Assembly (NCBI RefSeq): GCF_009914755.1
Contig: NC_060930.1
DNA from: the human T2T-CHM13v2.0 reference genome, Homo sapiens
DNA length: 64,000 nucleotides
Direction: 5' to 3' (one strand)
A program made the translations under genes and the position numbers. Below the pieces are notes generated by a model. The model made no database searches and had not been told where the DNA came from. It worked only from the letters and a program-made list of their open reading frames with translations. Within the stretch, counting starts at the first letter, position 1, and each line of letters opens with the position of its first letter. Shown here in pieces: positions 6,261-50,200 of the stretch.

Positions 6261-6390
6261 CTCCTTCCTGGCAGCCTTTGGCACATGGACTTAGAAACCA
6301 GAAGCTGAGATGGAGCCGGCTGGGTTCAGAAATTGCCACTAGTTTATAAGAGCTGTAAGTCAGCCAACACTGGAAAGAAAAAGCGAGACT
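6261..6390 (-). other. AGPAT4: AGPAT4 (LPAAT-delta) non-coding exon 1 (5'UTR); upstream boundary approximate
   Basis: Minus strand reads TGAACCCAGCCGGCTCCATCTCAGCTTCTGGTTTCTAAGTCCATGTGCCAAAGGCTGCCAGGAAGGAG, which I recall as the start of the AGPAT4 cDNA. It is followed directly by a strong donor GAG|GTATGT (acatac at 6255-6260) and lies in the most CpG-rich unique region of the window. Confidence 0.85.
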
Positions 6391-35126: not shown

Positions 35127-36879
35127 GAACTTTAGTTTTCTCACCACCAAATGAAGGCACTGGACCAGATTATTTTTGTGTCTTCTCGAAACTCCAACAT
35201 TCTATGAGTCTACCTAAAACATTAGCGTTCTGACAAATGTTAGTTGAATGAGTCAATGTAAACAGAAGGATTTGTGTCCCCCTTGAGAGAAAACTGGGGG
35301 AAGTCCTGGGACCCTTTTAGGGCAGGGAGGAGCTGGATGAACCTGGGCATCTGCCGCCCTCGCCAACAGGAGTTGTGGGAGTGCTCCCTTCCCCAGGAGG
35401 TCACAGAAAACAAGCATGTCCAGTGTGCCAGAGGATTCGGACTGAGAGAACTACTCTTTTCCTTTAAGTGTGATTGTTCATCTCAGGATAAAATGGGAAA
35501 GGAATGACCAAACCAACAGAACATAAGAAAGAAGAACTCGGAGTCCAGGAAAGTCCTGGTGAGTGAGGGTGGAGGAGACAGAACCGTGGAGAGAGGGGCA
35601 TGTCCTCAGGAGAGACCAGGTCTCTCCCTCCTCTGGACTCTGCCCTGGGTTCTGCGGCTGTAGGTCAGGCGGGTAGGTATCTGTGGGTGTTGTGGTGGTG
35701 TTCTTGTCTATTTGGTGGGGGTGTGGATTGAAAAACAAAGACGTCATGTGGCTTTAGCTAAGAGGGAGGGAACAGAGATACAACCACTAAATCCCTTTCT
35801 TTTAATTTTGCAATAATTGCAATTTTTAAAGAATTTTAAGACAGATTCTTGGTATTTGGAAAGCACTGAGTTCTTAGGAAAGAAGGTGCCGAATGCATTG
35901 TAAATACCCAACTTCTGTTTTCTGGGAAAATCCAATTTTCTGAAAGAAAATTGGAATTAGATATGGCATGTCAACTTTAAGTGCTATTATACGCACAATT
36001 ATAATATGTTCTTTTGGCCTCGAAACTCTCAACTTGAAAAGGCGCAATTTGCAATCTCCTTGTGCCCAGAAGGCTCTGAAGAAGAAACACAAGTGAGATA
36101 GGTACAGTTTGTGCTCATTGTGCACCAGGGGGGATGAGAAGCTCCACTAAAATCAATTTTCCCCTATCTGAACCTTTCATCTGGAAACAACAAAACAGTT
36201 TTCAGATTCCAATAACTTTGAAACATTTACACAATAGAGTACAGGCTTGCCTGTTCTCCTAACTAGCATATTCAGAACATAATTTAACCTTTTTCTTGTT
36301 GACTCACTATGAATCATCATTATGAATCAAAACTATAGAATTTTAGTACAAAAAGAGACCCTAGAGATCAGCTAGCTCTGATTTCTTCATATTCTAGATG
36401 CCCAAATGCTGGTGTGATTGGAACTGGGTGTGGGGAGCTGGTCTAGAACCCACGACTTCAATTCTTGTCCAGGCTGAGAAGGCCGTGTCCTGGGCCTGGC
36501 GCTCATGGCATGTTAACGGCGGTGGGGTGCCCCTGTGGTTGTGGGCGCCACCCAGGCCAGCTGCCCGCTGGCGAAATGGGCTTGGTCTCTTCCTGCTCCG
36601 CACACTTTGACATCAGCTCGTTGTGGCTCCCTGTCTCTGCTCTCCCGGGTGGCCAGTGACGCTGTGCGGGGTGCAGCGCCTGTGCTGTCTGCTTCTGAAG
36701 GTAATTCTCCCCTCCTCAGGGTACTCTGTACATTCTGCGGGCAGGGGCCTCCCAGGGTCTTTCCTCTAGGAACCCCGTCCGCTCTCAGACCTGCTGCCTC
36801 TGGGTCCAGGGCCCGGGTGGCTTTCTTTCCTCTTTACAGCCCCGTCTCCCACACTTTCTGCTCCACTTACAGGACTGGC

Positions 36880-37190
36880 TGCCAGGTGGGCCACTCAAAC
36901 CAGAGACATTGATTTCTCAGATCTAGAGGTTTGAGGCCCAAGAGCAAGGTGTCATCAGGGTTGGTGTCTCTGTGGCTTGCAGACAGCTGTCATCTCCCTG
37001 TGTCCACATGGTCTTCCCCTGTACCTGTCTGTGTCCCAATCTCCTCCTCTTCAGGGGATACCAGTCATATTAGGCCCTATCCTAATGGCCTATTTGAACT
37101 CAATCAACTCTTTACAGACCCAAATACAGTAACTATATGTTAGGACTTCAACATACAAATTTGCAAGGGTCACACTTCTGCCCAAAACAG
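36880..37190 (-). mobile_element. MLT1-type MaLR LTR fragment
   Basis: caaggtgtcatcagggttgg...cttgcagacagc...aggacttcaacat. Confidence 0.75.
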
Positions 37191-41414: not shown

Positions 41415-42700
41415 TTTGGACTCTTGGTCTTCTGAGGGCCTCCACTGTGGGCCAAAGAGTCTGCCTTGTGCCCACCCATGGCCCAGCCCAGTCCTCAGGA
41501 ACCTGCTAAAACCTCTGGGCAGAAGCGGGGGCTCAGGCGAACCCAACCCATCTGCCACAGTCCCACCTTCTGGGAGTTGGGGTTTGTGGAGGCAGCTTAC
41601 TCGTGCCCCACCAATGATTTCTGACCCTAAGATCTAGTCTTCTTCATCTTTTTATTAGAAAAAAATATTTGGTCTGTAGATTGTAAGCTCCTTGAGATGA
41701 GAGATGATATCTTTTCCTCTAATTTTATATTGTGAAAAATTTCAAAACAACACAAACAGGTGCATGATAAATACAACGAAAACCCCTAGACTCTTCATCT
41801 AGATTCACTGATTTTTAATATTTTGTAACATCTGCTATCTTTATTTTTTATTTTATTTATTTATTTATATTTTTTTGAGAGAGTTTTGCTCTTGTTGCCC
41901 AGGCTGGAGTGCAATGGTACGATCTTAGCTCACCCACAACCTCCACCTCCCAGGTTCAAGCAATTCTCCTGCCTCAGCCTCCTGAGTAGCTGGGATTACA
42001 GGCATGCACCACCATACCCGGGTAATTTTGTATTTTTAGTAGAGATGGGGTTTCTCTATGTTGGTCAGACTGGCCTCCAAGTCCTGTCCTCAGGTGATCT
42101 GCCCACTTCAGCCTCCCAAAATGCTGGGATTACAGGTGTTATAAATAAAGTTTTGGAGCCGCAAAAGAAATAGCACTCAAATATAAGATTTTCTTTTTAA
42201 TTCTCAGCAAGGCAATGTACTTCTATAGAATGGTGCACCCTTACAGATGCAGCAATGGTGAGCGCACACTTGGACCAGGGAGGGGAAGGGGTTCTTATCC
42301 CTGACCCACGTGGCCCCTGCTGCTGTGTCATTCTCCTATTGGCTAGGGTTAGACTGCACAGGCTAAACTAATTCCGACTGGCTAATTTAAAGAGAGTGAC
42401 GGGGTGAGTGGTTTGGCAGGAAAAATGGTTATGATACAGCAGGAAATTGAAATGACTCAGGGCGGAGAATGAGCAGGTAATCTGAACGAGTCAGGGTGGA
42501 GCAGGTAATCGGAATGAGTCAGGGTGCAGCAGGTAATCGAAAAAGTTTGCTTTACGAGGAGTTAAGTTTAAAAGTAGAAGACAAAGAGTTGAACATACTG
42601 ACATATTGATTCTTTGAAGAGAAATTTAGAACTCATATCTAACAACCCCTCCTCTTGCATTTCCTTACAGTTCTTTCTCTTCAAACTTCTTTAATATGTC

Positions 42701-44700
42701 TTAGCTTAGTTGTTCTGCTTGATTTCCTAAAAGAAGAATCTTCTCTGGATAAGGTGGAGGATAGTGAAGGGAGGTTTCAGTAAGTGCCATTTTTATGAGC
42801 CTCTGCATCAACCCACGGATGCATGGTGTGACACAGCACCCGACAAGAATAAGTACACCCATTACTGCTGCAAGAGAAGTAAGAATTGAGACTATTATTC
42901 CTCTCCATTTACAAAACCACTTTTCTAGCCATCCTGTAAAGGGGTCATTTACCCGTAAGTTGTTGGCTAACTCACTGGACAGAGCAGTCAGACCTTGCAA
43001 TGCCTTTGTTATACTTCCATCAGGGGCGATGTTGTTTGGGATGAAGGTACAACATTGAGTTTTAATCATAATGCAAACTCCTCCTCTTTCTGCTAATACC
43101 ATGTCTAAGGCTATCCTATTTTCCCAAGCCATCTGGCCTGTAGCCCCTAATGGCTCAGCTATTCCTTCAACAGCATCTCTAGTGTAGTTACTAAATCACT
43201 GTTGGTTGTAGTAGATGTAGTTTATCCAATCTACATTTTTATTAATTGTCACCCACCAAGATATTGACTCAAATCCTGCAGCTATTTGATTTCGGAATTC
43301 AAATTGATCTGGTATTCCCCGTGGGACTCCAGTTGCGTTTAAATAGACATGAGAGTCGAAAGACCCATAAGGGGCTTCTCTCGCATTATGATGTCTTATT
43401 TTTCCTTCCTCTAGTTGATGAAATGCCAGGGTGAAACGGATAGCCAATTGGACTAAAGCACAAGTGCCGCTCCAGTTATTCGGCAGAGTGTCCAGTAAAG
43501 GTCCACCAGAATACCACCACACATCCACTAGGGGATGAACAAGGGCTGACTGATTGATAAGTTCTTGAAAATTCTTAAGCTCACTGCATCCCCCCAGGTC
43601 TCCAAGGAATGCTGTTTCCTCCCTGTCGTGAGAGATATGAAGTTAACTTAGTGTTGGGAGACAGAAGCTGGATGGCCCTCAGGGGCTGGCCCATAGGATG
43701 CCGGACTTCGGGATATAGCAGAGAGAGAGCATGGCACAACTTGTTACTCCAGGCTGTAGGATCCGGGAAAAGAGCTATCATGCAGCCCACTCCTGGTCAA
43801 CTGGAGGACCACCCTACTAGAAAGGGGACAATCTGGGCCTCTGGCCTGCCATGCACACAAGCATAACAATTGCTTTCGTTTAAAGTGCGGACGGAATATC
43901 TGATCCATTCCAACCAGGCATTTGCAACTTGGTAACCTGTTTCAATTGCCAATACTTGTTTTAAGTCTTTAACTTCTACGACAGCCATCTTGGTCTTGTG
44001 GTTAGATGGAGGAGGAGCAATTATTCCGTTGTGAGAGGTTTTGGAAGAAGGCTTAGAAGAAGGTGCAGGCAGTGCGGGATCAAAGAAATACATTTTAAAG
44101 AATCCAATAGGGTCTGTCCCTCAAACCTCAACCCCCATACCATAAAACTGGCTTAAAGGAGGGAACCGGCTTAGAAAAGGGGAAGAAGTTTGAGGATTCG
44201 AGATAATAACCTGTATAGGATTGCACTGGTTTAGCTGACACTTAGTGGGGGGCTGTCCCTCTAGTAACATGAATGTACAGTTTTAGGAAATTACAAAAAC
44301 AGGTTGGGGCGGTCCATCCTTGCTCTTTAGTGGTCCACAGAATGCTGGACCAACTATGGCATAAAAGCTGTACATTGGGAGGGCAAGACTCCTGGTTGAC
44401 GCCGGGGTCTTTATCAAAATCTCCTCGGATTAAATGGTCCCAGTTCACTAATGCCTAATCTGAGAAGAGTCAGGAGGGACAGAGGTGCTTTTCTGAAGTA
44501 GAGAGCTGTCTCTGACTTGGCAAGTTCCCACAGGGTATAACAAGGCAAGCACCAAATGCAATAGTTTGAGGCGAAATTGACTTGGTTATGTTAATAACTA
44601 GATGGTCAGCAATAGAGTGAGGAAAGAAGAAAAAGTAATAGAATAGATGAAAGAGTTAAATTTTTCTTAGCTTTAGTTTGGTAGCGTTTTCCCCTGGGAC
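42701..44700 (-). pseudogene. env: Disrupted retroviral env
   Basis: Spread over several ORFs: hydrophobic leader (LSSILLLFLL), SU with CYAC motif, and TM with ISD-like WENRIALDMVLAERGGVC, CX6CC (CIMIKTQCC) and a membrane anchor. Broken by stops and frameshifts. Confidence 0.9.
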
Positions 44701-45039
44701 TATGGCCCACGACTCTGGAGAAGGCGGTGCTTTTTTGACTCGGGTGTGATGAGTCCATCCCCTTTCCACTGTATGAACAGCAGTCTCGGTGATTAGTAAC
44801 ACAAGGTAAAGTCCTTCCCAGGCTGGCTCGAGTTTTCCTTCTTTCCACCCTTTGATGAGAATGTGATCCTCAGGCTGGTGCTGGTTTACCGGAAATTCTA
44901 GGGCTGGTACCTGTGCTAAAAGACTTTTAGTTTTGAGGGAAAGGAAAGTAGAAGATAAACCAAGTATATAATTTCTAAGAAATTGATCTTTTGTTTTACA
45001 TGTGGGGACATCAGCAATGGACTTTATAGTCCTTGGCAC
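44656..45039 (-). pseudogene. pol: pol remnant (integrase C-terminal GPY/F-like region)
   Basis: HQPEDHILIKGWKEGKLEPAWEGLYLVLLITETAV...WTHHTRVKKAP resembles the gammaretroviral integrase C-terminus. Confidence 0.85.
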
Positions 45040-47912
45040 CTTCTTGCTGAGAAATTTTCTTTAGCACCTATTTTTATTATTTTTTAGACCAAAGAAAGCC
45101 AAACACCATTTTATATTTGCCAATGCTTCCTGTATGATATTTATACCAGATAAGCTAAATTTCACCTTTACATTAGTGTGTTTTTAATGTTAAACTTAAT
45201 TTTAATAAAATCTTGTAGCCATATTTATCCAATTTTTAATGTCTGACCATATGGTAAGATTTGTATAGACGCTTTTTAACCTTTTATAATTTTTGTTTAA
45301 AAGCAGGTTAGTGCTTTAAGAAAAACCTGTTGTGCTTTTATTTTAATGTCCAGTTCTCAGAAAAACTGGGTGATATCCCTTTAACTTTACCCAATATGTT
45401 TACACACAGAATTTCCTTTTCAATTAACATTTCAAAACTTGCCTAAACCTTTAAAACAATTTTTTTTAACCATTTAATGTAGGTAAAAATCCACATTCTT
45501 ATGTCTCCTTATAATCCTTTTACCAAAGTACGTTTTACTTTCCTTACACACCTTACACATAAACTGTTTCTTCAATAGTTTTACATTCAGGAGGCCTAAT
45601 TACTTTTAAATTATACAACATTTCTTGCATAAATTCCCTTTTATAACTTTTTTTTCCCATAACTTTCACAGACAATTCTTCAACATGCCTCAACTTTCTG
45701 ACTTGTTGCAAACATCCCTTTCTCTAAACAACCAGTTCATTTATTTTAGGACAAGAATTTACCATATAATATTCCTTTTTACATAAATTCTCCCCCCCCC
45801 CTTTGTTTTTTCTCAAAGATGATAACCATTCTTTTCCAAATTGAACTTCCTTCATTTCTGTGGACTAGACTGTCTAAGGCCACAAGATTAGAAGTTAGGA
45901 TAATACATGTTACACTCTTAACTTTTAGCAAACTTTACTTTTGTTGAAAACCTTGTAAGTTTGGGATTTCAATTATTCTTTGCTATTAATAAGACCTCGT
46001 TCAGTCCATATTAACTTAGAATTAGTATAGATGACTCCTTCCTGATTCTGTAAGCACTTTAAGGCTTGGCTGAGTGCAAACAGCTCGCAGGCACGTTTGA
46101 GCAGACCAATTGTTAGGCAATTTTCCTAACTTGGCTTCTCCAAGAGTTTCCTTATCACTTACTGAATACCCATTGTGTCTTTTTCCTTCAATCACCCAGG
46201 AGGAAGCATCTACAGTCCTGTCCTGAAGGTAGTTCCTCCTAGGTCTGGTTGGACCTTTGTATGGTAATTAAGATTTAGATGCCCTGTTAGGAAACCTGGT
46301 GGGTTAAGGGAATTTTCAGTGGTTCATGTTAAATCATCTTTTTCTAACAGAATAGCCTCATACTTTAAGATTCTTGAGTCAGTAAGCTATCTTTTGTTTT
46401 CTTTTTGACTTAGGATAGTTCTGACCTGATGAGGTGTGCTCACAATGAAGTTTACTCTAAAAGTTATTTTTCTACTTTCTTCTGTTAGCGAAGCAGTTTC
46501 CACTACAGATTGAATGCATTTGGGCCATCCACGGGTTACTGGGTTAAGGATTTTTGATTAGGAAGGCTACGGGTTGTCAGTCACCTCAGGGCTTTTGGGT
46601 TACAACCTTGTTTACACTGGCAACAAGGTGGTATTGGAGTGTTATAGGGTCAGGGAGAAGACCTTCAATTATTAATTATAGGTTTTAAATTTACCCTGGC
46701 TTTTAAAGGAATAGGGTACACTGTTTTCTCTTTACTACTCTCCCTCTCTCTGTTTGTCTCTGTCTCTTTCTCTCTCTCTGCCTCTCTCTCTCTTTGACTC
46801 TGTCTCTTTCTCTGCCTCTGCCAGCCGCTTATGCTGCTCTTCTCCCCTCTCCTTCCCCTTCCCCTAGGGGAGGGACCGGTGGGAGTGCAGCTACTCTTTC
46901 TTTCCCTGAGAAGAAAGGAAAGGGGAGTTCTGAATATTTTTCTTACTACAGGAGGTTTGTGTGAGGTTCAACCCCCTGAAATTTGCGGAAGGCTCAACCC
47001 CGCAAACCAGGGGGTGTCTTGCCTTGCTGCTCTAGAAGGTTGACCTGTTTCCTCCCTTTCCCCCTCTGAAGGTCCCTTGCACACTTCCCACTCGTGTTGT
47101 CCTCTCTGGCTGCTCCCCCAAGGGAGAGTTAGGCCCCTCTTAGTGTTAGAGTGCCGGTATAAATCCCATGGCAGGATCAGCCCTAAGCTATATGAGGTAG
47201 CTACGGAACCCCGGAGAGGTCCCACTCACTCTGTCCAGCAGTAGGACTTGTCACCATCCACACGAAGAACACCACAAGTAGGGTTGTTTGTGATCATTCA
47301 CACACACACACATTTAGCCCTCCAGAATTTGACCAACAAGGAAGTACTTTACCGGCTCCCGCGGCTTCTCCTTCCTTGGTCTGTGCACAGAGTCACCGCT
47401 GCAGTATGTGAGGATCCTTTAAGCTAGGTTGCTGGCCAGTTTCTTTCTGCGTTGCCGAGAGCTCGAGTTATTCCTGGAACTGGGTGGGTCCTGATTTCTC
47501 ACCCCTGAGGCCCCCACAAGGCGGCGGGGCGCACGTCCTCACCAGAGAGAACCAGAGACTGCCCGGAAGGGGAATGTATCACGAGGGAGCCCCCAAATTG
47601 TTATAAATAAAGTTTCGGTGCTGCAAAAGAAATAGCACTCGAATATAAAATTTTCTTTTTAATTTTCAGCAAGGCAATGTACTTCTATAGAAGGGTGCGC
47701 CCTTACAGATGGAGCAATGGTGAGTGCACACTTGGACCAGGGAGGGGAAGGGGTTCTTATCCCTGACGCACATGGCCCCTGCTGCTGTATCCTTTCCCTA
47801 TTGGCTAGGGTTAGACTGCACAGGCTAAATTAATTCTGATTAGCTAATTTAAAGAGCGTGAGGGGGTGAGTGGTTTGGTGGGAAAAATGGTTAAGGGCAG
47901 AGCAGGAAATTG

Positions 47913-48280
47913 CAATGAGTCAGGGTGGAGCAGGTAATCAGAATGAGTCAGGATGCAGCAGGTAATCCGAAGGAGTCAGGGTGAAGCAGGTAATCAGAAT
48001 GAGTCAGGGTGAAGCAGGTAATCGGAATGAGTCAGGGTGGAGCAGGTAATCGGAATGAGTCAGGGTGGAGCAGGTAATCGGAATGAGTCAGGGTGGAGCA
48101 GGTAATCGGAATGAGTCAGGGTGAAGCAGGTAATCTGAATGAGTGTCAGGGTGGAGCAGGTAATTGGAATGAGTCAGGGTGAAGCAGGTAATCCGAATGA
48201 GTGTCAGGGTGGAGCAGGTAATCGGAATGAGTCAGGGTGCAGCAGGTAATCAGAATGAGTCAGGGTGAAGCAGGTAATTG
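47913..48280. repeat. 28/30-bp tandem array (13 units) with AP-1 sites in the 5' LTR10
   Basis: Unit gaatgagtcagggtggagcaggtaatcg; 13 units counted, 10 with intact TGAGTCA. Confidence 0.95.
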
Positions 48281-48473
48281 AAAAAGGTTGCTTTACGAGG
48301 AAGTTAAGTTTAAAAGTAGAAGGCAAAGAATTGAATATACTGACATATTTATTCTTTGAAGATAAATTTAGAACTCATATCTAACACAGGCGTGAGTAAC
48401 CGCACCCGGCCCGTATCTGCTATCTTTAAAGAGATACATATACACATTTTATGTGTATATATATATATATATA

Positions 48474-50200
<1,727 letters not shown>

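What the first reader, a model, noticed from the sequence alone, without database searches (positions are those of the whole stretch)
47913..48280. Asymmetric expansion of an AP-1 (plus CAGGTA) tandem array in the 5' LTR10 upstream of AGPAT4
Seen: 13 units with 10 perfect TGAGTCA sites in the 5' LTR, against 3 units with 2 AP-1 sites in the 3' LTR (about 42450-42540). Units 5-7 are identical and units 8-9 and 10-11 form a 58-bp higher-order duplication carrying a GT insertion that destroys the AP-1 site. Every unit also carries CAGGTA, a ZEB-type motif. Known: LTRs are identical at integration, so the copy number changed afterwards; LTR10 elements are reported MAPK/AP-1-responsive enhancers with variable arrays in epithelial cancers. 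Inference: a copy-number-tunable enhancer for AGPAT4, about 41.5 kb away, combining AP-1 and ZEB inputs. The family phenomenon is described; I do not know of this locus-gene link being described.
Basis: partly seen in the sequence, partly recalled or inferred. Interest (0 to 1): 0.8.

Follow-up and report, generated by a model that had tools for sequence, protein, structure and literature searches.

The report
Expanded AP-1 repeat in retroviral LTR
One end of an ancient retrovirus remnant upstream of the human AGPAT4 gene has grown a 13-copy repeat full of AP-1 binding sites, a real but already described kind of cancer-responsive enhancer whose link to AGPAT4 is still untested.

Summary
Window 47900-48278 is a 28-bp tandem array (13.4 copies) with 10 TGAGTCA sites. 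The partner LTR has 3 units and 2 AP-1 sites.

Both LTRs belong to one degraded HERV-I provirus on the minus strand (42137-48386). It has a 4-bp target duplication and sits inside an Alu. LTR divergence is 7.5%, roughly 18-31 My.

The AP-1 context matches the published LTR10F motif, whose consensus has three AP-1 sites. So the 5' LTR expanded; the 3' LTR did not shrink.

Unequal arrays are normal for this family: 12 of 14 provirus pairs differ. This pair differs most. The array ranks high but is not the largest inspected; chr1:73.03 Mb has 15 AP-1 sites.

The 28-30-bp AP-1 VNTR, its polymorphism, MAPK dependence and ZEB1/ZEB2 binding are all published for LTR10A/F (Ivancevic 2024).

The AGPAT4 link could not be tested. 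No searchable paper states it. The paper's per-element tables could not be read.

Verdict: a real, strong new member of a known kind, of modest interest.

The parts
42133..42136 (.). Left copy of the 4-bp target-site duplication (CAGG), inside an Alu
   Evidence: The same CAGG follows the right LTR at 48387-48390. Left and right flanks rejoin into a continuous Alu-like sequence; the Alu identification is from recall of the Alu consensus.
42137..42644 (-). 3' LTR (508 bp) of the provirus, TG...CA ends
   Evidence: aligns end to end with 47599-48386. Outside the array 370 of 400 positions are identical.
42439..42538 (-). 3' LTR array: 3 units (TGACTCA, CGAGTCA, TGAGTCA) plus a truncated unit
   Evidence: Inter-flank length is 107 bp.
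42646..42656 (-). Polypurine tract (AAGAGGAGGGG in sense), just upstream of the 3' LTR
   Evidence: sense-strand read-out. This fixes the provirus on the minus strand.
42704..43195 (-). env remnant (C-terminal part of the TLV_coat envelope polyprotein)
   Evidence: PF00429, E 5.7e-06, profile positions 455-560 of 560.
44659..45060 (-). pol remnant (MLV-type integrase C-terminal domain)
   Evidence: PF18697, E 4.2e-07. The other 16 of 18 minus-strand open frames of 50 aa or more had no Pfam hit at E<=0.01.
47578..47595 (-). Primer-binding-site-like stretch, 3 nt after the 5' LTR
   Evidence: sense read-out (TGGGGGCTC...). Its likeness to a tRNA-Pro/Ile primer site is from recall and was not tested.
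47599..48386 (-). 5' LTR (788 bp), LTR10F type
   Evidence: boundaries; 10 copies of the LTR10F-specific AP-1 context and 0 of the LTR10A contexts given in Ivancevic 2024 Methods.
47900..48278 (-). Expanded 28-bp VNTR in U3: 13 units, 10 TGAGTCA, 13 CAGGTA, 6 GGAATGAGTCA
   Evidence: It covers sense positions 109-487 of the LTR, upstream of TTTAAA (534), CCAAT (583) and ATTAAA (724).
48014..48097 (-). Three identical units (5-7)
48098..48213 (-). Two copies of a 58-bp higher-order unit, each with one intact AP-1 site and one broken by a GT insertion
   Evidence: 56 of 58 identical. Both differences are CpG/TpG.
48387..48390 (.). Right copy of the target-site duplication (CAGG), followed by the rest of the Alu
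47472..48685 (.). RefSeq 'enhancer' functional element (hub annotation)
   Evidence: Taken from the hub's table, not from a call. Its centre (48078.5) lies 10.5 bp from the array centre (48089) and 86 bp from the LTR centre. The 3' LTR has no such feature.

Best explanation
What it is. This is the U3 enhancer repeat (VNTR) of the 5' LTR of a fixed, degraded HERV-I provirus of the LTR10F type. The provirus lies on the minus strand at 42137-48386 and inserted into an Alu roughly 18-31 My ago.

How it arose. At integration both LTRs probably carried about three 28-bp units. The 5' LTR later gained about ten units by replication slippage or unequal exchange. Traces include a triplet of identical units and a duplicated 58-bp double unit.

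How it most likely works. Each unit pairs an AP-1 heptamer with a CAGGTA Z-box. By inference from the family, the array is silenced in normal tissue. In cells with high MAPK/AP-1 activity (colorectal and other epithelial tumours, trophoblast) it would become an AP-1-bound enhancer whose strength scales with AP-1 number. ZEB1/ZEB2 would act as repressors on the interleaved sites.

Shown versus inferred. The anatomy, the origin and the direction of change are shown here. Enhancer activity at this copy is inferred from the family and from the RefSeq feature. The target gene is not established. AGPAT4 is the nearest protein-coding candidate (TSS 41.5 kb away, same strand).
For: - Array and motif counts.
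- One integration event: matching LTR ends, 4-bp duplication CAGG, flanks rejoining one Alu, PPT and PBS-like stretch on the minus strand.
- Gammaretroviral interior: integrase and env remnants.
- Age: 30 mismatches in 400 aligned non-array positions, K2P 0.080, giving 18-31 My at 0.13-0.22% per My. The published family age is about 30 My.
- LTR10F type: 10 of 10 intact AP-1 sites sit in the context cctgactcatt, which Ivancevic 2024 give for the three LTR10F consensus motifs.
- Consensus has three AP-1 motifs: Frost 2023.
- Family context: among 67 distinct LTRs measured (73 of 80 loci passed the flank test), this array is the longest at 386 bp. The other 66 have median 90 bp, maximum 244 bp, median 2 AP-1 sites and maximum 6.
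- Genome-wide: 7 of the 74 exact matches to a 34-nt AP-1-to-AP-1 pattern lie in this LTR, the most for any locus. The reversed-pattern control gave 0.
- Family function (passages of Ivancevic 2024): FOSL1/JUND binding; luciferase activity dependent on the AP-1 motifs and on MEK; AP-1 number correlated with H3K27ac and FOSL1 signal; VNTR polymorphism with 28-30-bp periodicity; ZEB1/ZEB2 ChIP enrichment.
- Locus level: the RefSeq enhancer feature is centred on the array and absent from the 3' LTR (hub table).
Against: - No binding, chromatin, contact or expression data for this copy could be examined.
- Ivancevic 2024 state that many LTR10 elements have no predicted regulatory consequence and that the elements are H3K9me3-silenced in normal tissues.
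- Frost 2023 report weaker JUN/JUND binding on LTR10F than on LTR10A.
- Three of the 13 units have lost the AP-1 heptamer.
- The lncRNA LOC105378094 TSS is closer (about 20.5 kb) than the AGPAT4 TSS (41.5 kb). Three other RefSeq enhancers lie between the LTR and AGPAT4 (hub table).
- The sample of 67 LTRs is not the whole family. Targeted look-ups found one larger array (chr1:73.03 Mb, 15 AP-1 sites) and one equal in AP-1 number (chr5:116.44 Mb, 10).
Confidence: 0.75

Rival explanations
1. One reading: the array is a copy-number-tunable enhancer specifically of AGPAT4. It would integrate AP-1 activation and ZEB input, so that unit number sets AGPAT4 expression.
For: - AGPAT4 is the nearest protein-coding gene and its TSS lies 41.5 kb away on the same strand (hub table).
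- A RefSeq enhancer feature is centred on the array.
- CRISPR-tested LTR10 enhancers act on genes within 1.5 Mb.
- AGPAT4 is aberrantly expressed in colorectal cancer (abstract of PMC7099097).
- In head-and-neck carcinoma lines AGPAT4 has upregulated eRNAs and H3K27ac HiChIP loops, reported alongside MAPK genes (PMC9343809 passages).
- A second LTR10F array of 8.7 units lies inside AGPAT4.
Against: - No contact, perturbation or eQTL data for this element were available.
- AGPAT4 is not named in the main text of Ivancevic 2024; only AGPAT5 is.
- The PMC9343809 supplements give counts but no coordinates.
- Closer annotated enhancers and a closer lncRNA TSS exist (hub table).
- Polymorphism at this locus is unknown, since only one haplotype was seen.
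Confidence: 0.2
2. Neutral repeat drift: the array is a mutable VNTR that expanded by chance in a silenced provirus and has no regulatory effect on any host gene in any normal or tumour context.
For: - Unequal arrays are the rule: 12 of 14 provirus pairs differ, with no bias in count (6 vs 6).
- Array lengths across the family range from 11 bp to over 400 bp.
- The family is H3K9me3-silenced in normal tissues, and many active copies have no predicted target.
- Unit decay by CpG transitions and a GT insertion shows no purifying selection on the AP-1 sites.
Against: - The RefSeq enhancer feature is centred on the array and absent from the 3' LTR, which is 92.5% identical (hub table).
- The published correlation between AP-1 number and H3K27ac/FOSL1 signal predicts that a 10-site copy is among the more active.
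Confidence: 0.2
3. Promoter rather than distal enhancer: the expanded U3 mainly drives transcription from the 5' LTR through the provirus, in the same direction as AGPAT4. The product would be a non-coding HERV-I transcript or a read-through or chimeric RNA.
For: - The array sits in U3 upstream of TTTAAA, CCAAT and ATTAAA elements in sense orientation.
- Frost 2023 show LTR10A-driven proviral transcription.
Against: - Most LTR10A/F elements are not transcribed.
- RefSeq lists a single AGPAT4 transcript starting at 6384 and no gene over the provirus (hub table).
- No RNA data could be examined.
Confidence: 0.1

Closest known systems
LTR10A/LTR10F AP-1 VNTR enhancers (Ivancevic et al., Sci Adv 2024, PMC466953; e.g. 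LTR10.ATG12, LTR10.XRCC4)
   Same: - 28-30-bp unit containing an AP-1 site.
- Same AP-1 context as the LTR10F consensus.
- HERV-I origin.
- Copy number varies between copies.
- ZEB-type motif in the unit, matching the published ZEB1/ZEB2 enrichment.
   Different: - This copy was not named in the main text.
- Activity, polymorphism and target are unknown here.
- It is a two-LTR provirus, so the 3-unit 3' LTR dates the expansion as post-integration at this very locus.
LTR10A/F JUN-bound trophoblast enhancers (Frost et al., NSMB 2023, PMC10113160; ENG, CSF1R, NOS3)
   Same: Same LTR family, with three AP-1 motifs in the consensus and JUN/JUND binding.
   Different: The tested examples are LTR10A. 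LTR10F binding is reported as weaker. Nothing is known about this copy in trophoblast.
U3 enhancer direct repeats of exogenous gammaretroviruses (e.g. the 72-75-bp repeats of murine leukaemia viruses; recalled, not from a call)
   Same: Tandem repeats of transcription-factor sites in U3, upstream of the promoter, with copy number affecting enhancer strength.
   Different: - The unit here is 28 bp.
- The expansion happened in the host genome, in the 5' LTR. By the standard retroviral replication scheme (recalled), that LTR's U3 is not passed to progeny virus.
SVA VNTR polymorphism
   Same: A fixed retroelement with an internal, unstable VNTR that creates regulatory variation. Ivancevic 2024 draw the same comparison.
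   Different: Different element class, unit and transcription-factor content.

Membership tests
HERV-I provirus with LTR10-type LTRs | Two LTRs with TG...CA ends flanked by a short target-site duplication | tested here: met
   LTRs at 42137-42644 and 47599-48386, CAGG duplicated, flanks rejoin one Alu.
HERV-I provirus with LTR10-type LTRs | Gammaretrovirus-like internal genes between the LTRs | tested here: met
   MLV-type integrase C-terminal domain (E 4.2e-07) and TLV_coat env C-terminus (E 5.7e-06). 2 of 18 open frames hit; no gag, protease or RT hit, so the interior is degraded.
LTR10F subfamily | AP-1 motifs in the context cctgactcatt (LTR10F), not cctgagtcacc or cttagtcacc (LTR10A), as printed in Ivancevic 2024 Methods | tested here: met
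   10 vs 0 in the 5' LTR, and 1 vs 0 in the 3' LTR.
LTR10F subfamily | Best match to the Dfam/Repbase LTR10F consensus (RepeatMasker call) | not testable with these tools
   No repeat library is on hand. The hub table gives no family names.
LTR10A/F AP-1 VNTR | Internal tandem repeat of 28-30 bp that includes the AP-1 motif | tested here: met
   period 28, two 30-bp units, 10 AP-1 sites.
LTR10A/F AP-1 VNTR | Length polymorphism among humans at the locus | not testable with these tools
   Only the T2T-CHM13 haplotype is held. The paper's per-locus tables and figures were unreadable.
LTR10 MAPK/AP-1-dependent enhancer (functional class) | FOSL1/JUN occupancy with H3K27ac or ATAC signal in tumour cells, lost on MEK inhibition | not testable with these tools
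   No epigenomic data are available. The only hint is the RefSeq 'enhancer' feature in the hub table, whose basis I could not see.
LTR10 MAPK/AP-1-dependent enhancer (functional class) | Down-regulation of a nearby gene when the element is silenced or deleted | not testable with these tools
   This is an experiment. AGPAT4 is absent from the main text of the CRISPR study.
ZEB1/ZEB2-bound LTR10 | ZEB-type motif (CAGGTA/CAGGTG) present and ZEB occupancy | tested here: inconclusive
   Motif is present 13 times; other copies also carry CAGGTG units. Family-level ChIP enrichment is published. Occupancy at this copy was not testable. Reading CAGGTA as a ZEB Z-box is from recall.

The most novel reading that the evidence does not exclude
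The AGPAT4 promoter is bracketed by two independently inserted and independently expanded LTR10F AP-1 arrays. One is this 13-unit 5' LTR, 41.5 kb upstream. The other is an 8.7-unit solo LTR about 48.7 kb inside the gene. They are the two longest of the 67 LTRs in my similarity-based sample. Together they would make AGPAT4 MAPK/AP-1-responsive and copy-number-polymorphic. That could help explain its aberrant expression in colorectal cancer, and would point to a regional tendency to repeat expansion, or selection for it, at 6q26.
Probability: 0.1. Interest if true: 0.55.

Novelty: new member of a known kind. Interest (0 to 1): 0.3.

Why it matters
If this copy is active, it offers a natural within-locus comparison. 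The two LTRs come from one provirus, lie 5.5 kb apart and are 92.5% identical outside the array, yet carry 10 and 2 AP-1 sites. That is a clean system for measuring how AP-1 copy number sets enhancer strength.

AGPAT4 converts lysophosphatidic acid to phosphatidic acid. It has been tied to colorectal cancer progression through macrophage polarisation (abstract of PMC7099097). A MAPK-responsive, length-polymorphic enhancer for it would be a plausible source of variation between people and tumours.

As it stands, the finding adds one well-characterised locus to a phenomenon already described genome-wide.

Tried and rejected
- Fuzzy-regex unit counting undercounted: it gave 4 units for this array. 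I dropped it for inter-flank length.
- The first anchor-chain count also undercounts diverged arrays. I used it only as a first look.
- The script ended with a JSON error after printing its table; the numbers were recomputed.
- Seven of 80 loci failed the flank test and were left out of the family statistics: L027, L034, L037, L043, L044, L049, L057.
- L082 also lacks the normal flanks. Its AP-1 sites were counted directly.
- Supplements of Ivancevic 2024, which hold per-element AP-1 counts, predicted targets and VNTR variants, could not be read. They may already list this element and its predicted target.
- Supplements of PMC9343809 mention AGPAT4 only as counts, without coordinates.
A 34-place pattern was used instead.
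- Shared origin or gene conversion between this LTR and the AGPAT4-intronic LTR was rejected. The intronic LTR has its own duplication (GAAT) and lacks the GT-insertion units.
- 'This is the largest LTR10F array' was rejected. The chr1:73.03 Mb array has 15 AP-1 sites.
- 'Identical units prove a recent or human-specific expansion' was rejected. Three identical 28-bp units are unlikely to be as old as the integration (P about 0.04 at 3.75% per site), but they remain compatible with an age of many millions of years.
- A general 5'-LTR bias was considered. Counts are 6 vs 6, and by my reading of the table the unpaired 5' and 3' medians are both about 90 bp.

Full report
**1. The observation**

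The sequence at 47900-48278 is a head-to-tail array with a 28-bp period: 13.4 copies, 90% matches, TRF score 589. A short array of the same unit (2.5 copies) lies at 42471-42539 (read directly).

Splitting at GCAGG(T/A)AAT gives 13 full units plus a truncated 14th.
- Ten units carry TGAGTCA.
- Unit 3 has GGAGTCA.
- Units 9 and 11 have TGAGTGTCA, the GT insertion.

CAGGTA occurs 13 times in the array, against 29 in the whole 64-kb window. From base composition, 0.05 TGA(G/C)TCA sites are expected in 379 bp; 10 are present. The rest of the window holds 14 sites against a whole-window expectation of about 8.

Units 5-7 are identical. Units 8+9 and 10+11 form a 58-bp double unit duplicated at 56 of 58 identity, and both differences are C/T changes at CpG. 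The left array has three units reading TGACTCA, CGAGTCA and TGAGTCA, so two consensus AP-1 sites.

**2. What it sits in**

The two arrays lie in two LTRs that align end to end: 42137-42644 (508 bp) and 47599-48386 (788 bp).
- Both LTRs start with TG and end with CA on the plus strand.
- CAGG flanks the element on both sides.
- Joining the outer flanks minus one CAGG gives a continuous sequence that I recognise, from recall of the Alu consensus, as the antisense 5' part of an Alu.

On the minus strand a polypurine tract (AAGAGGAGGGG) directly precedes the left LTR. A TGGGGGCTC... primer-binding-like stretch follows the right LTR after 3 nt.

Of 18 minus-strand open frames of at least 50 aa in the 4954-bp interior, two hit Pfam:
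- an MLV-type integrase C-terminal domain (E 4.2e-07);
- the C-terminus of the TLV_coat envelope polyprotein (E 5.7e-06).

No gag, protease or reverse-transcriptase hit was found. The interior is a degraded gammaretrovirus-like genome.

Outside the arrays the LTRs differ at 30 of 400 aligned positions: 20 transitions, 10 transversions, 10 at CpG. K2P distance is 0.080. At the commonly used 0.13-0.22% per My per lineage (recalled rates) this gives about 18-31 My. That agrees with the roughly 30 My stated for HERV-I in Ivancevic 2024 (passage).

**3. Subfamily and direction of the change**

The Methods of Ivancevic 2024 print the AP-1 contexts they mutated:
- cctgactcatt for all three LTR10F consensus motifs;
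- cctgagtcacc and cttagtcacc for LTR10A.

The reverse complement of the LTR10F context occurs 10 times in the 5' LTR and once in the 3' LTR. The LTR10A contexts occur 0 times in either. [quoted passage not shown] I could not run a Dfam or RepeatMasker classification.

To place the array in its family I searched the window's own assembly (T2T-CHM13, held as G000) with three queries: the array-free part of the LTR, the leader next to the 5' LTR, and the env end next to the 3' LTR. Each search scored 40 of 740, 161 and 169 first-look candidates, and 80 loci were kept.

I measured the distance between the two conserved flanks of the array. This worked in 73 of 80 loci, representing 67 distinct LTRs.

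| | Inter-flank length | AP-1 sites |
|---|---|---|
| This 5' LTR | 386 bp (longest) | 10 |
| Other 66 LTRs, median | 90 bp (about 3.2 units) | 2 |
| Other 66 LTRs, maximum | 244 bp | 6 |
| This provirus's 3' LTR | 107 bp | 2 |

The 3' LTR is therefore close to the family norm and to the three-motif consensus. The 5' LTR gained about ten units; the 3' LTR did not lose them.

**4. How unusual is it?**

Among 14 proviruses with both LTRs measured, 12 have unequal arrays: 5'>3' in six, 5'<3' in six, equal in two (built). Post-integration change of this VNTR is the rule. This locus shows the largest difference at 279 bp, or 10 units. The next largest are 166 and 136 bp.

Genome-wide pattern counts point the same way.
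- A 25-nt unit-junction pattern has 168 exact matches (reversed-pattern control 0). Of the 100 listed, 9 are in this LTR.
- A 34-nt pattern running from one AP-1 site to the next has 74 matches, all listed (control 0). Seven are in this LTR, more than at any other locus; the next loci have 5, 4 and 3.

I fetched eight of those other loci. At least one array is larger and others are close:

| Locus | AP-1 sites | Array size |
|---|---|---|
| chr1:73.03 Mb | 15 | about 17 units |
| chr5:116.44 Mb | 10 | truncated LTR, flanks missing |
| chr18:50.44 Mb | 9 | 322 bp |
| chr5:83.46 Mb | 7 | 297 bp |

The paper reports up to 33 AP-1 copies among LTR10A/F in the reference genome. This array is in the upper tail but is not a record.

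**5. History inside the array**

The two copies of the 58-bp double unit differ only by CpG-to-TpG changes. That duplication is therefore old enough to have suffered methyl-CpG decay.

Units 5-7 are identical over 84 bp. If they were as old as the integration, at about 3.75% change per LTR lineage, the chance of no change would be about 0.04. They are probably younger, or were homogenised. Identity over 84 bp is still compatible with millions of years, so nothing here shows a human-specific or recent expansion.

**6. How it most likely works**

The array occupies sense positions 109-487 of the 788-nt LTR. It lies upstream of TTTAAA, CCAAT and ATTAAA elements, so it is in U3, where retroviral enhancer repeats sit.

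For the family, passages of Ivancevic 2024 report the following:
- FOSL1, JUND and ATF3 binding;
- reporter activity of the LTR10A/F consensus that depends on the AP-1 motifs and on MEK signalling;
- H3K9me3 silencing in normal tissue;
- a correlation between AP-1 number and H3K27ac/FOSL1 signal;
- germline and somatic length variation of the VNTR with 28-30-bp periodicity;
- ZEB1 and ZEB2 ChIP enrichment, with both treated as repressors.

Frost 2023 report JUN/JUND binding in trophoblast stem cells, weaker on LTR10F than on LTR10A.

By inference, this copy is a conditionally active, multi-AP-1 enhancer with interleaved ZEB-type sites. The hub's RefSeq table lists an 'enhancer' at 47472-48685. 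Its centre is 10.5 bp from the array centre and 86 bp from the LTR centre. No such feature covers the 3' LTR. This fits a dependence on AP-1 number, but I could not see what experiment underlies the feature.

**7. The AGPAT4 link**

This part remains untested.

In its favour:
- AGPAT4 is the nearest protein-coding gene, on the same strand.
- CRISPR-tested LTR10 enhancers act within 1.5 Mb.
- AGPAT4 is aberrantly expressed in colorectal cancer (abstract).
- AGPAT4 has enhancer loops in head-and-neck carcinoma lines (passages).

Against it:
- The lncRNA LOC105378094 starts closer, about 20.5 kb away.
- Three other RefSeq enhancers lie between the LTR and the promoter (hub table).
- Many active LTR10 copies have no predicted target.

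Searches for papers holding AGPAT4 together with another term gave nothing relevant:
- with LTR10: 0 papers;
- with 'endogenous retrovirus': 1 paper, on a pig genome;
- with VNTR: 1 paper, on hand osteoarthritis.

The main text of Ivancevic 2024 names AGPAT5, not AGPAT4. Its supplementary tables list every element and its predicted targets, but they could not be read. The link may therefore already be tabulated there.

**8. Verdict**

It is a strong new member of a known kind, the LTR10F AP-1 VNTR enhancers. The ZEB component and the copy-number variability are family properties already in print. The locus-specific claim is plausible but unsupported by any data I could reach. Interest is modest at 0.3.

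Noticed in passing
L002 (G000 chr6:162582137-162585431; LTR at about 162583.3-162583.9 kb, roughly 42-43 kb left of the window start): A solo LTR10F lies inside AGPAT4, about 48.7 kb downstream of its TSS and antisense to the gene. It has its own duplication (GAAT), an 8.7-unit array and 5 AP-1 sites. It is the second longest of the 67 LTRs sampled, and 95% identical to the array-free part of this 5' LTR. The AGPAT4 promoter is thus bracketed by two independently expanded arrays.
   Followed up: partly
window 48014-48125, 48156-48183, 48214-48241 (units 5-8, 10, 12): In 6 of 13 units the AP-1 heptamer is abutted by GGAA, giving GGAATGAGTCA. This also reads as a TEAD MCAT core (GGAATG) or an ETS core; both readings are from recall. 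The exact 11-mer is reported as a non-canonical AP-1-IRF composite element bound by mutant IRF4-C99R with JUNB but not by wild-type IRF4 (bioRxiv 10.1101/2022.12.29.522203, passage). TEAD is not mentioned in the main text of Ivancevic 2024.
   Followed up: partly
14 provirus pairs (loci L021-L081): Counts of 5'>3' and 5'<3' arrays are equal (6 vs 6). However, the six largest differences (3 units or more) are all 5'>3', while all 5'<3' differences are 2 units or fewer. Two of the six were found because of their length, so this is only a weak lead towards preferential large expansions in 5' LTRs.
   Followed up: partly
L081 (chr14:47388700-47390900) and L083 (chr1:73024300-73026500): The chr14 5' LTR has five identical consecutive units in an array of 239 bp, against 73 bp in its 3' LTR. 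This is another asymmetric, homogeneous expansion. The chr1 array has 15 AP-1 sites and an Alu inserted just beyond it.
   Followed up: partly
L083-L088 arrays: Other copies mix CAGGTAAT units with CAGGTGAT units; CAGGTG is the canonical E2-box form, from recall. The ZEB-type site is therefore a conserved family feature with two variants. This locus carries only the CAGGTA form.
   Followed up: no
window 42000-42136 and 48387-48411: The provirus split an older Alu. An exact empty-site sequence can therefore be written for checking presence or absence in other primates.
   Followed up: no
window 42137-42644 vs 47472-48685: Only the expanded 5' LTR is covered by a RefSeq enhancer feature; the 3' LTR is not (hub table). 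The feature is 1214 bp long and centred on the array. Its size is like that of the 1200-bp feature at 35829-37028, which suggests a fixed window around an assay peak.
   Followed up: no
window 46738-46822 and 48456-48474: A CT-rich low-complexity tract lies inside the proviral interior, and a (TA)9.5 microsatellite lies just beyond the Alu remnant.
   Followed up: no
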